Assembly (NCBI RefSeq): GCF_053078305.1
Contig: NZ_CP166879.1
Direction: 5' to 3' (one strand)
DNA length: 64,000 nucleotides
Shown here: positions 37,901 through 40,900 of the stretch, in pieces
Position numbering within the stretch: position 1 is the first letter of the stretch
How the letters are laid out: every line of letters starts with the position of its first letter
Position numbers: made by a program

Positions 37901-40900
37901 CAATAAAGTAGCAAACAGGCCGAGCAAAATAACCCGATACGAGCGCCCTCCAGGTCGGTCAATCATCCGGTTGATGATGTCCAGATAGCGCCAGCTTCGT
38001 TGCTCATTGCTGGCCCGCCGCCGCATTAAACGATATCGCGCCTGTCCAGCCCCCTGCTCAGAGAAATAATGCTCAAGCAACTGCACCATTGCGGAAAGTC
38101 CCTGACGAATCTGTCCATCAGAGAGATTTTGCGGATGTGAGGACAACTCACGGGCGAGGAAATCGAGCTGGCGCGCGGTGACTTCCACATTGGGGACATT
38201 TGGCACCGTGCCGTTACGAATACGGCGCATAAAACGGGCATCACGCAAGCGCAGCACCGGCATTAAACGCACCAGATGGCGTGCCTGATCGTTAATATCC
38301 TCAATATCAATCGGATGTCCGTCTTTATCGAGAAAACTGCGCAGTGTCATCACGCTGCCGTCTTCCGCACTCTCCCCTTCCAGACGATAAAAAATACGGT
38401 GATAGCCATCGGTGCATGGCGTCCAGCACGCTTCCAGCGGCCGATAACGGCGAACCCGATGTCGGCCTGGCAGCGATTCGCGGAAGGTCAAAATAATATG
38501 CAGATGATGTTCTCGCCCGTTGATATCTCCCGGCGGGAACCAGAAATCGTCGCGCTCAAAATGGTAGAGATCTGATTCTGGCGATAGCAGCAGGGTTAAG
38601 GCGTCCAGCAAGCTGGATTTACCCCACGCGTTCTCCCCAATCAGGACGTTGTTTTGTTCCAGCATCAACGACAAACGGTTGATACCGCGAAAACCCACAA
38701 TTTCAACGCGCTCAAGAATCATATCCCCTCCAGAAATATGTGACTTATCCTTTACGCTGGCAGTATAACGGGAAAGGCCTTGCTAATACGTGATGACATC
38801 ACATTTAAGCATGGCAAATGTCTGAAAAATGAGCGAATAATCGCGTTATACTCCCTCTTGCTGATAAGTCTGCAAAAACAACAAAATCAAATAATTAGCA
38901 TGATAAATTATTTTTTATTACGCCTAAAGGATTAAATCTTTTGCTTGCACTACACTGTCAATCAGACAAATGACTATATGGGGCAACCCGCTGTTGCCCT
39001 AAATCAAATTTACTGGATTTATTTATCTGGTGAATGACTCGCCTTCGTTTTTAAAATAGCCGCGCATTATTTGCGTCGTCACTTTTTTACGACGACCCTA
39101 TAAAACGACCATATTTTTCACAGGGTCAATTTTTAATTGAGGTGGATATGTTCAGAAAATTAGCAGCTGAATGTTTTGGTACTTTCTGGCTTGTTTTTGG
39201 TGGCTGTGGTAGTGCTGTACTGGCCGCAGGCTTCCCGGAATTAGGCATTGGTTTTGCCGGCGTGGCGCTGGCATTCGGTTTGACCGTTCTGACGATGGCC
39301 TTCGCTGTTGGTCATATTTCTGGTGGTCATTTTAACCCGGCGGTCACTATTGGTTTATGGGCTGGCGGACGTTTTCCGGCAAAAGAAGTCGTTGGCTACG
39401 TAATTGCCCAGGTTGTCGGCGGTATTGTTGCGGCAGCGCTGCTGTATTTAATTGCCAGTGGTAAAACGGGTTTTGACGCGGCAGCCAGCGGTTTTGCTTC
39501 TAACGGTTATGGCGAGCATTCACCAGGCGGTTATTCCATGCTTTCCGCGCTGGTAGTTGAACTGGTATTGAGTGCAGGTTTCCTGTTGGTGATCCACGGC
39601 GCAACCGACAAATTCGCTCCGGCAGGTTTTGCGCCGATCGCTATTGGTCTGGCCTTAACCCTGATTCACTTAATCAGTATTCCGGTGACTAACACTTCTG
39701 TTAACCCGGCGCGCAGCACCGCGGTTGCTATCTTCCAGGGCGGCTGGGCATTAGAACAACTGTGGTTCTTCTGGGTGGTGCCAATTGTCGGCGGTATTAT
39801 TGGTGGTCTGATTTACCGGACCCTGCTGGAAAAGCGTAATTAATTAACGCAGAAGGCCTGGCGCAATGTCAGGCCTTTTTTAAATATATTGATTCATCTT
39901 CCTGTTGCGCTCCTTGATGTGTTAAGCCACATATAGTCACTGGCGCAGGGAGCGCGCAGGGGGCGGCCAATCGCCGCCGCCCCCTGCACCCCCGGGCTCT
40001 GGCGAACAAAATCGCCGCTGCGCGGTACCCTCAGCTTATCCCTTGCGGCTACCGGGTCGGGCGCGAGGTAACATCCCTGTAAAACGCGCCCTCAGCCCAC
40101 ATCCATGTGGGCTGCCCCGGCCTTCAGGGAACGCCTCGGCGATTTTGACGCCACCAACACCGGTGCGGTTTGTAATTAAAGAGCAAGAATATCTTTAAAT
40201 GAAAATGAATACCCTACCGATCCTTATGCATAACATTTCCTTTTAATTGCAACTTTACTCGTCCTTCCGCTTTCAGTAGTGTGTCATCGCGCATTTCGAC
40301 TTCTTTCTTTGCAAGGGCTGGGTTTTCATGTTTTCTGGGTTGTTAATCATTCTGGTTCCCCTGATTGTGGGTTACCTCATTCCGCTTCGCCAACAAGCTG
40401 CGTTAAAAGTTATTAATCAGCTACTAAGCTGGATGGTTTACCTTATTCTCTTTTTTATGGGTATCAGTCTGGCGTTTCTCGATAACCTCGCCAGTAACCT
40501 GTTGGCGATTCTGCATTATTCTGCCGTCAGTATTACCGTTATTTTACTGTGTAATATTGCCGCCCTTATGTGGCTGGAGCGCGGTCTGCCGTGGCGCAAC
40601 CACCATCAGCAAGAAAAACTCCCGTCGCGTATTGCGATGGCGCTTGAGTCGCTAAAACTGTGCGGCGTAGTAGTGATTGGTTTTGCCATTGGCCTGAGTG
40701 GACTGGCTTTCTTACAACACGCGACCGAAGCCAGTGAATACACCTTAATTCTGCTACTTTTCCTCGTCGGTATTCAGTTGCGCAATAATGGCATGACCTT
40801 AAAGCAGATTGTCCTTAATCGCCGGGGAATGATTGTCGCCGTGGTGGTGGTTGCCAGTTCATTAATTGGTGGTTTAATTAACGCCTTTATTCTTGATCTA

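What the first reader, a model, noticed from the sequence alone, without database searches (positions are those of the whole stretch)
39900..40150. GC-rich multi-hairpin element between aqpZ and lysO
A 250-bp GC-rich block after the aqpZ terminator contains three strong, well-separated stem-loops (11-bp, 7-bp and 9-bp stems). It is not a canonical REP/BIME. It could be another repetitive extragenic family or a structured small RNA.
Basis: seen in the sequence. Interest (0 to 1): 0.3.

Follow-up and report, generated by a model that had tools for sequence, protein, structure and literature searches.

The report
RRS-lysO replication risk sequence repeat
The GC-rich hairpin block between aqpZ and lysO is real, but it is the already described E. 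coli "replication risk sequence" RRS-lysO (Rudd's TRIP1 repeat), a foldable DNA element that makes the replication machinery leave a short single-stranded gap.

Summary
Window 39900-40150 is a 63-73% GC block with the three reported stems (12, 7 and 9-10 bp) plus at least seven more helices, and it folds far better than shuffled sequence on both strands (z about -5.3 and -5.5).

It is not new. Window 39939-40160 matches the 222-bp MG1655 RRS-lysO at 216 of 222 bases. It carries the published G-quadruplex tract GGGGGTGCAGGGGGCGGCGG at 39974-39993 on the minus strand. It lies 168-389 bp upstream of lysO, as Pham et al. 2023/2024 define it; Rudd called it TRIP1 in 1999. Published work shows the folded strand blocks lagging-strand synthesis and leaves gaps of up to 2 kb that bind SSB and RecA.

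What I add:
- **Family.** It belongs to a dispersed family (3-13 copies per genome, several genera) whose helices covary strongly.
- **Pairs.** Copies often sit in head-to-head pairs.
- **Orientation.** It is polymorphic in natural E. coli; O157:H7 has both RRS inverted.
- **G4 tract.** G4 potential is strong only in one subfamily.
- **RNA-motif likeness.** The core resembles Rfam TwoAYGGAY, with two CsrA-type CA(N)GGA(N)G loops, but scores below threshold.

Verdict: already known, low interest as a finding; the TwoAYGGAY link is a lead.

The parts
39939..40160 (-). RRS-lysO as defined by Pham et al. (168-389 bp upstream of the lysO start at 40328). The minus strand is the G4 ('sense') strand.
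   Evidence: Definition. Alignment to the K-12 interval L001:3056-3277 gives 216 of 222 identical. Klebsiella copies align over almost the same span, query 57-279 = window 39941-40163.
39903..40175 (-). Whole repeat unit as bounded by comparing alleles: 5' TTACAAACCGCAC ... GGAGCGCAACA 3' on the minus strand. It may reach about 39885-40190 in this subfamily.
   Evidence: Alleles A and B of the aqpZ-lysO spacer share only this stretch.
39974..39993 (-). Published G-quadruplex-forming tract GGGGGTGCAGGGGGCGGCGG.
   Evidence: Exact single match in the window, with 0 expected by chance. Motif quoted from the paper.
39956..39987 (-). P6: 12-bp GC hairpin. Its 5' arm on the minus strand is part of the G4 tract.
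   Evidence: It covaries between subfamilies, e.g. GUUAAGGGUAC/GUACCCUUAAC (columns 261-301).
39907..39955 (-). P7: helix GCGCUCC/GGAGCGC (39949-39955 with 39907-39913) around a variable interior.
   Evidence: It covaries with CGUUCAC/GUGAACG in the other subfamily (columns 303-354).
40000..40153 (-). Core domain closed by P0 (40149-40153 with 40000-40004) and P1 (40140-40147 with 40007-40014). Covariance model R1 matches 39981-40156 at 199 bits.
40029..40139 (-). P2 (40133-40139 with 40029-35), with an invariant tandem G.A/A.G, and P2b (40126-40130 with 40039-40043).
   Evidence: Pair counts (helices 3 and 4). The tandem GA is invariant in 51 of 51 sequences.
40093..40114 (-). P3 hairpin, 9 bp, loop region CAUGGAUG (40100-40107).
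   Evidence: Seven of 9 pairs have compensatory changes (helix 7).
40059..40091 (-). P4 hairpin: outer stem GGGCGCG/CGCGCCC, inner stem ACA/UGU, loop region CAGGGAUG (40072-40079).
   Evidence: helices 8 and 9. CA, GGA and G are invariant although my search pattern did not fix them.
40015..40025 (-). P5: 4-bp hairpin CCGC-GCA-GCGG.
   Evidence: helix 10 (3 of 4 pairs with compensatory changes); coordinates.
39853..39877 (+). aqpZ terminator-like hairpin AAGGCCTG/CAGGCCTT followed by a T run. This is context, not part of the repeat.
   Evidence: It is absent from the inverted allele B.

Best explanation
This is RRS-lysO, one of the two full 'replication risk sequences' of E. coli (TRIP1 of Rudd 1999). 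Three steps of the mechanism are shown in published experiments. First, when the replisome unwinds this region, the strand exposed as lagging-strand template folds into a G4 plus GC-rich hairpins. Second, the lagging-strand polymerase is blocked and synthesis restarts downstream. Third, this leaves a transient gap (up to 2 kb in vivo, about 650 nt in vitro) that binds SSB and RecA. The authors propose, but have not shown, that the gap acts as a swivel relieving topological stress near the Ter macrodomain border. For this window I show identity, position and orientation: the G4 strand is the minus strand, which lies on the G-rich strand and so is the lagging-strand template. That it behaves the same way in this strain is inferred.
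For: Identity: 216 of 222 bases match the K-12 RRS-lysO interval. The G4 tract matches exactly at 39974-39993 on the minus strand. The element lies between aqpZ and lysO, 168-389 bp upstream of lysO as defined. Orientation: the window's plus strand has a GC skew of -0.026 over 64 kb, so the minus strand is the compositionally leading strand and hence the lagging-strand template, as the paper states for K-12. Literature: RecA/SSB ssGap-seq peaks depend on the RRS. Pol I, II and IV are blocked at the G4; the element works when moved; a double deletion is obtained only together with a 200-kb amplification; supercoiling changes. Single-molecule work gives gaps at about 100% of encounters in the G4-lagging orientation and about 66% in the other. 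My own analysis supports selection on a single-strand fold: 93.8% of cells are paired, against 36-45% in the slid controls; 32 of 54 pairs have changes on both sides; 0 of 500 shuffles reach the covariation score. Both strands fold strongly.
Against: About 26% of complete E. coli genomes carry the lysO RRS inverted, and 37% carry the dusC RRS in the orientation opposite to K-12. O157:H7 Z910 has both inverted. G4 potential is high only in the E. coli/Klebsiella subfamily (G4Hunter about 1.8) and lower elsewhere (mean 1.34, many about 1.0), whereas the helices are family-wide. Solo copies show no orientation bias against local GC skew, 24 versus 28, though this is a noisy measure. Outside Escherichia, only one copy in my sample sits next to dusC, and none next to aqpZ or lysO. 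The invariant CA(N)GGA(N)G loops and the tandem G.A are not explained by a simple polymerase block.
Confidence: 0.85

Rival explanations
1. The element is primarily a selfish, dispersed structured repeat, comparable to a MITE or REPIN. It persists and turns over in 3' intergenic regions. Gap formation would then be a by-product, or a later co-option at the two Ter-flanking sites. This does not exclude the best explanation for the two K-12 sites.
For: E. coli genomes have 1-10 places, and one Klebsiella chromosome has 13. Copies occur in at least ten genera in unrelated gene contexts. There are several subfamilies and 23 head-to-head pairs. Copies prefer convergent (22) and co-directional (17) spacers over divergent ones (2), with no sense/antisense bias (9 versus 8). 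Presence, absence, orientation and internal deletions are polymorphic at four E. coli loci.
Against: I could not define a target-site duplication, a clean empty site or convincing terminal inverted repeats. No transposase or other linked gene was found. There are no matches in phage genomes, and every plasmid-collection hit is in a record typed as non-mobilizable, several of them chromosome-sized. [quoted passage not shown]
Confidence: 0.3
2. The minus strand is transcribed into a structured RNA related to the TwoAYGGAY motif. This RNA presents two high-affinity CsrA sites, so it would titrate CsrA or recruit it to neighbouring transcripts.
For: Rfam TwoAYGGAY matches 40148-40009 on the minus strand at 31.5 bits, E = 0.024, and copies from other genera at 30-37 bits. 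In the reverse direction, the RRS-derived model hits genuine TwoAYGGAY sites in 6 of its 7 best matches. The loops ACAUGGAUGU and ACAGGGAUGU fit (A/U)CANGGANG(U/A), the CsrA/RsmE consensus as I recall it. They are conserved in copies my pattern did not select. TwoAYGGAY has been proposed as a CsrA-binding RNA. G.U pairs exceed A.C pairs on this strand, 49 versus 37, or 49 versus 12 without one loop-closing pair.
Against: No promoter or terminator was found. In this window the strand is antisense to aqpZ and lysO. Copies show no orientation bias relative to genes. No CLIP-seq entry for aqpZ was found in the held supplements, though one file was truncated. All Rfam scores fall below the gathering score of 43. 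Both search patterns contained CA.GGATG, so the reciprocal hits are partly circular. G.T wobble is also tolerated in folded single-stranded DNA.
Confidence: 0.12
3. It is a REP-like 3' stabiliser or terminator for aqpZ mRNA.
For: It lies just downstream of aqpZ. Its stable hairpins could form on either strand. The family prefers the 3' ends of genes.
Against: aqpZ already has its own hairpin and T run at 39853-39880 upstream of the element. No terminator-like site lies inside the element. The element shows no similarity to REP: the REP-derived Rfam family naRNA4 matches elsewhere in the window, not here. This idea does not account for the ssDNA-gap phenotype in the literature.
Confidence: 0.03

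Closest known systems
RRS-lysO / RRS-dusC, the replication risk sequences (Pham, Wood, Cox & Goodman 2023, PMC10287960; Pham et al. 2024, PMC10592627; Kusi-Appauh et al. 2026, PMC13308219)
   Same: It is the same element: same locus, 97% identical over 222 bp, same G4 tract, same strand relative to replication.
   Different: Nothing essential differs. This strain's copy has 6 substitutions. My family-level data add natural inversions, extra loci and covarying helices that the sections I read do not describe.
TRIP1 (Rudd 1999, 'Novel intergenic repeats of Escherichia coli K-12'), as cited in PMC10592627
   Same: Same three K-12 loci: two full copies (lysO, dusC) and a third partial one. I located a partial copy between yegH and asmA.
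   Different: I could not read Rudd's paper. That the yegH-asmA copy is his third, partial repeat is my inference.
TwoAYGGAY RNA motif (Rfam RF01731; Weinberg et al. 2010)
   Same: Both have a long closing stem and a junction carrying two adjacent hairpins. The loops read CAUGGAUG and CA(G/U)GGA(U/C)G in the same order. Both occur in many copies per genome. Both form head-to-head (-,+) pairs.
   Different: Scores of 30-37 bits fall below the gathering score of 43. The second loop is mostly AGGGAY, not AYGGAY. The enterobacterial units are GC-rich and carry two extra 3' hairpins (P6, P7) and the G4 tract. No common function has been shown.
REP/BIME and other enterobacterial intergenic repeats (ERIC/IRU, box C)
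   Same: All are dispersed, extragenic, hairpin-forming and mostly found at the 3' ends of genes.
   Different: This unit is far longer (about 270 bp), has a multi-branch fold and far fewer copies, and shows no sequence similarity. The REP-derived Rfam family naRNA4 hits elsewhere in the window.
Neisseria gonorrhoeae pilE G4
   Same: According to the RRS authors, it is the only other bacterial sequence reported to trigger a programmed gap.
   Different: Its sequence is unrelated. It serves pilin antigenic variation and is not a dispersed repeat. This is taken from those papers and was not tested here.
CsrB/CsrC/McaS-type CsrA-binding sRNAs
   Same: GGA motifs presented in hairpin loops.
   Different: Those RNAs have their own promoters and terminators and are abundant transcripts. 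None of that is seen here.

Membership tests
RRS (replication risk sequence) | Sequence of the 222-bp MG1655 repeat | tested here: met
   216 of 222 bases identical to the K-12 interval 168-389 bp upstream of lysO.
RRS (replication risk sequence) | G4-forming tract GGGGGTGCAGGGGGCGGCGG on one strand only | tested here: met
   Exact match at 39974-39993 on the minus strand, with no match on the plus strand.
RRS (replication risk sequence) | Position next to lysO (or dusC) | tested here: met
   aqpZ lies at 39142-39843 and lysO at 40328-41227, with the element between them.
RRS (replication risk sequence) | G4 strand is the lagging-strand template | tested here: met
   Indirect test. The window's plus strand has a GC skew of -0.026 over 64 kb, so the minus strand is the G-rich strand. 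Other natural E. coli do not meet this feature, for example IAI1 at lysO and O157:H7 at both sites.
RRS (replication risk sequence) | About 650 kb from dif, flanking the Ter macrodomain | not testable with these tools
   The window is 64 kb and its chromosomal coordinates are not given. The position is inferred only from synteny with K-12.
RRS (replication risk sequence) | Triggers lagging-strand ssDNA gaps bound by RecA and SSB | not testable with these tools
   Shown experimentally only for K-12.
TwoAYGGAY RNA (RF01731) | Score at or above Rfam's gathering score (43 bits) | tested here: not met
   31.5 bits, E = 0.024. Other copies score 30.6-37.2 bits. Genuine members score 87-149 bits.
TwoAYGGAY RNA (RF01731) | Two terminal loops containing AYGGAY | tested here: inconclusive
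   The P3 loop AUGGAU fits. The P4 loop is AGGGAU here and AGGGAC, AAGGAC, AUGGAU or AGGAU in other copies.
TwoAYGGAY RNA (RF01731) | Large closing P1 stem around a multi-stem junction | tested here: met
   P0, P1, P2 and P2b close the domain and covary. The family description is quoted.
REP/BIME | REP (PU) consensus palindromes of about 35 bp in mosaic arrays | tested here: not met
   The REP-derived Rfam family naRNA4 matches 56863-56943, not the element. No other copy of the element lies in the window.
Independent sRNA gene (CsrB-like) | Own promoter and intrinsic terminator; a discrete transcript | tested here: not met
   Zero promoter-like and zero terminator-like sites in 39700-40450 on either strand. 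A transcript was not tested.
MITE / REPIN-like mobile repeat | Terminal inverted repeats, a target-site duplication, and empty sites | tested here: inconclusive
   No duplication or clean empty site was found; alternative alleles replace the whole spacer. The end sequences are only weakly inverted. The head-to-head pairs resemble REPIN doublets.

The most novel reading that the evidence does not exclude
The E. coli RRS elements are the GC-rich enterobacterial branch of a much wider class of dispersed, often head-to-head paired, structured repeats. Rfam catalogues part of this class as the 'TwoAYGGAY RNA' (gut Clostridia, Psychromonas). On this reading the class is defined by covarying helices, an invariant tandem-GA stem and two CA(N)GGA(N)G hairpin loops, not by the G4. 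Two consequences are then possible. Programmed gap-forming elements may be widespread well beyond enterobacteria. Or the conserved loops may point to an unrecognised ligand such as CsrA, acting on an RNA or on folded single-stranded DNA, with the Ter-flanking role in K-12 a co-option of a selfish repeat.
Probability: 0.4. Interest if true: 0.65.

Novelty: already known. Interest (0 to 1): 0.3.

Why it matters
As a scan finding it matters little, because the element has a name, a literature and a tested mechanism. The surrounding analysis could matter to people working on RRS for three reasons.

- The published model stresses conserved position and a G4 on the lagging-strand template. Yet a quarter to a third of natural E. 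coli carry one or both RRS inverted.
- G4 potential is not conserved across the family, whereas a multi-helix fold is.
- The sub-threshold but reciprocal likeness to TwoAYGGAY, including the same paired arrangement, would connect a 2010 'orphan RNA motif' with a 2023 'DNA structural element'. That would give both fields a concrete test.

Tried and rejected
- **Rfam.** Scans at gathering threshold gave nothing at the element. Only a sub-threshold TwoAYGGAY match appeared.
- **Promoter and terminator scans.** Empty for the window and for a Citrobacter pair. My by-eye -10/-35 candidates in the A/T-rich leaders were not consistent between subfamilies, so I dropped them.
- **Phage genomes.** No match.
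- **Plasmid hits.** All are in records typed as non-mobilizable; several are chromosome-sized or carry chromosomal genes.
- **CsrA CLIP-seq supplements.** No occurrence of aqpZ; ybjE/lysO and dusC appear only in expression and gene-list tables. One file was truncated.
- **Literature searches that led nowhere.** CsrA plus repeats, and box C/RSA/IRU. The search on Rudd's repeat names found the RRS paper.
- **RNAalifold consensus.** It mispaired the interior. My first hand-drawn structure contained a mapping bug, with P2 anchored on the wrong GCUGAGG. I replaced it and then tested it.
- **Apparent co-orientation with upstream genes.** The signal was an artefact of convergent gene pairs and of paired copies. 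Once separated, there is no bias.
- **Small ORF after the SD-like AAGGAG at the 3' end.** Not conserved across copies, so rejected.
- **Empty sites and target duplications.** Attempts failed at aqpZ-lysO and alx-sstT because whole spacers differ between alleles.
- **False or contaminated hits.** The two Desulfovibrio pattern hits (L034, L104) are chance matches. The Desulfacinum, Sporobacter and Bacillus hits look like enterobacterial contamination.
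Full report
**Observation.** The window is E. coli. aqpZ lies at 39142-39843 and lysO at 40328-41227, both on the plus strand, with ybjD upstream and hcp downstream. 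Between them, GC rises to 0.63-0.73 across 39900-40149, against 0.36-0.46 in the flanks. There is also a long closing helix at 40007-40022 with 40132-40147, and another helix at 39907-39916 with 39946-39955. Both strands fold much better than dinucleotide shuffles, with z = -5.25 and -5.51 and 0 of 200 shuffles as good.

**It is a repeat.** blastn against 5,426 complete E. coli genomes finds the block in 5,425, at 1-10 places per genome (median 3). The other E. coli loci are:
- dusC-yohP;
- yegH-asmA, truncated in K-12-like strains and full-length in others;
- alx-sstT, filled in 1,668 genomes.

Related copies occur in Klebsiella (13 places in one chromosome), K. aerogenes and Citrobacter. There are none in phage genomes. 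An exact-pattern scan of one genome per species returned 96 stretches. These came from Citrobacter, Enterobacter, Klebsiella, Raoultella, Leclercia, Kluyvera, Silvania, Atlantibacter, Pseudocitrobacter and Escherichia. Two Desulfovibrio hits are chance matches, and three hits in unrelated taxa look like contamination.

**Identity.** A literature search on Rudd's repeat names led to Pham, Wood, Dunbar, Cox & Goodman, 'The E. coli RRS elements'. They define RRS-lysO as the region 168-389 bp upstream of lysO, and RRS-dusC as 58-281 bp downstream of dusC. They state that the repeat was listed as TRIP1 in Rudd's 1999 screen, with a third partial copy. Here that interval is 39939-40160. It matches the K-12 interval at 216 of 222 bases. 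Their G4 tract GGGGGTGCAGGGGGCGGCGG matches exactly at 39974-39993 on the minus strand. The window's plus strand has a GC skew of -0.026 over 64 kb. The minus strand is therefore the G-rich strand, that is, the lagging-strand template, as they report for K-12. The finding is therefore RRS-lysO.

**How it works, from the literature.**
- ssGap-seq found two RecA/SSB peaks on the lagging-strand template that disappear when the corresponding RRS is deleted.
- The G4 strand blocks Pol I, II and IV in vitro and lowers M13 replication.
- An RRS moved elsewhere still creates a gap.
- Both copies can be deleted only together with a 200-kb amplification, or if replaced.
- Deleting or inverting both copies changes psoralen-measured supercoiling.
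- A 2026 single-molecule study finds gaps at nearly every encounter when the G4 strand is the lagging-strand template. With the complementary strand there, the figure is about 66%. No efficient gap forms on the leading-strand template.
- The 'topological relief valve' role is the authors' hypothesis.

**Conserved fold.** I aligned 51 family members, each under 88% identical to the others, over the core domain and wrote out a structure.
- 93.8% of cells form standard pairs, against 36-45% when partners are slid by 1-3 columns.
- 32 of 54 pairs change on both sides.
- The covariation score is 0.34, against 0.04-0.09 in the slid controls, and 0 of 500 shuffles reach it.
- P6 and P7, outside this domain, also covary.
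- The tandem G.A/A.G in P2 is invariant in 51 of 51 sequences.
- G.U pairs outnumber A.C pairs on the G4 strand, 49 to 37, or 49 to 12 without one loop-closing pair. This fits selection on that strand as a single strand, whether DNA or RNA.
- Caveat: my fetch pattern fixed AGGCCGGG, CATGGATG and AGGG, so conservation of those bases in this set means nothing.
- In 25 copies found only by nhmmer, both hairpin loops still read CA(N)GGA(N)G.

**G4 potential.** It is subfamily-specific. G4Hunter averages 1.81 in E. coli/Klebsiella-type copies, with the maximum on the 5' arm of P6. In the other large subfamily it averages 1.34, with many copies near 1.0. That arm covaries as a hairpin.

**Arrangement.** In 23 loci two units lie head to head, always in (-,+) order, 42-203 bp apart. 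Where I inspected the sequence, the two arms belong to different subfamilies. Copies lie mostly in convergent or co-directional spacers and rarely in divergent ones. In co-directional spacers they are sense 9 times and antisense 8 times.

**Natural orientation polymorphism.**
- At lysO, 4,026 of 5,426 genomes have the K-12/window arrangement. The others carry the element on the other strand, full-length (IAI1, O157:H7) or internally deleted (APEC O18), with completely different flanks. ST131 has a deletion of P3 and P4.
- At dusC, 1,998 genomes have the orientation opposite to K-12.
- Same-genome checks: IAI1 is inverted at lysO only. O157:H7 Z910 is inverted at both, and local GC skew agrees.
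- Outside Escherichia, only a Citrobacter youngae pair sits next to dusC in my sample.

These points qualify, but do not overturn, the published statement that sequence and position are highly conserved. They fit the 2026 result that either strand can trigger lagging-strand gaps.

**TwoAYGGAY.** Rfam's TwoAYGGAY model aligns end to end with 40148-40009 on the minus strand at 31.5 bits (E = 0.024, gathering score 43). It matches copies from other genera at 30-37 bits. In the reverse direction, model R1, built from the enterobacterial cores, scores 199 bits on the window. On 59 gut-metagenome loci, 6 of its 7 best hits fall on genuine TwoAYGGAY sites (best 20.1 bits, E = 0.025; Rfam scores there are 87-149 bits). 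Genuine TwoAYGGAY units also occur as (-,+) pairs or (-,-,+) triplets. In Psychromonas they occur in many copies, with loops ACAUGGAUGU and ACAGGGACGU in the RRS order. Because both fetch patterns contained the GGA hairpin, the reciprocal hits are partly circular. I therefore file this as a resemblance, not membership. Gardner & Eldai proposed TwoAYGGAY as a CsrA-binding RNA. The loops here fit the CsrA consensus as I know it. However, I found no promoter, no terminator and no CLIP-seq evidence.

**Verdict.** The feature is real, and it is the known RRS-lysO (TRIP1). The 'small RNA' reading is unsupported but not excluded. Novelty: already known. The family-level observations and the TwoAYGGAY link are leads for follow-up. 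The manner in which copies appear and are replaced in spacers remains unexplained.

Noticed in passing
L106, L116, L115, L112, L003, L004 (E. coli aqpZ-lysO and dusC-yohP spacers): The orientation of both RRS varies among natural E. coli. About 1,400 of 5,426 genomes are inverted at lysO, and 1,998 have the non-K-12 orientation at dusC. IAI1 is inverted at lysO only; O157:H7 Z910 is inverted at both.
   Followed up: yes
L008 1390-2003; L025, L032, L033, L035, L037, L066, L068, L070 and others (23 loci): Family members often form head-to-head pairs, always in (-,+) order, 42-203 bp apart around an A/T-rich centre. Where inspected, the two arms belong to different subfamilies.
   Followed up: partly
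L156 5332-5898; L155; L172; L122; L150; L171; L169 (human gut metagenome contigs): Genuine Rfam TwoAYGGAY units (87-149 bits) occur as (-,+) pairs or (-,-,+) triplets. Many lie within a few hundred bases of contig ends, as multi-copy repeats would.
   Followed up: partly
L009 1501-1767; L176 347-744; L177 347-669 (alx-sstT spacer): This is a fourth E. coli locus, carrying a full RRS-type copy in 1,668 genomes. K-12 and Nissle carry unrelated sequence there instead, made of CCCTC(A/G)CCCC and CCCTCTCCC...GGGAGAGGG hairpin repeats (possibly 'box C'; this is from memory and not checked).
   Followed up: partly
L108 345-758 (ST131); L107 345-664 (APEC O18); L002 4863-5183: Natural internal deletions occur. 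ST131 lacks the P3/P4 hairpins. APEC O18 and Z1323 lack the whole core between the repeated GGCCGGGG and CCCGGGGG motifs but keep the G4 tract.
   Followed up: partly
L048, L049, L082, L046: Some copies carry an insertion of about 75 nt inside the core. It holds a mini closing stem and one more hairpin with an AAGGAUG or AGGGAUG loop.
   Followed up: no
L016, L018, L029, L031, L044, L099-L101 (3' side of Enterobacter, Leclercia and Silvania copies): Copies of the GUGAACGGAAC subfamily are regularly followed by CCCCTCACCC and a CCCTCTCCCC-N4-GGGGAGAGGG hairpin, which is another dispersed repeat.
   Followed up: no
L109 1501-1673 versus L110 1501-1861 (yegH-asmA): The third, partial K-12 copy belongs to the GUGAACGGAAC subfamily. 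It is full-length in 55 genomes, and in the two strains compared it lies in opposite orientations relative to yegH and asmA.
   Followed up: partly
window 29225-29309 (+) and 29416-29443 (-): A tRNA gene lies about 100 bp from a single 28-nt match to Rfam CRISPR-DR4 (50 bits). An isolated repeat-like palindrome is more likely than a CRISPR array.
   Followed up: no
window 56863-56943 (-): An Rfam naRNA4 (REP-derived nucleoid-associated RNA) match at 66 bits, which indicates an ordinary REP/BIME site.
   Followed up: no
L026, L054, L074, L020: Contigs labelled Desulfacinum MAG, Sporobacter MAG, Bacillus sp. and 'Proteobacteria bacterium' carry Klebsiella- or E. coli-type copies. This probably reflects contamination or mis-binning.
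   Followed up: no
L004 168-251; L112 404-487; L115 1668-1751: The gene for the 27-aa small membrane protein YohP lies immediately next to RRS-dusC in every allele examined.
   Followed up: no
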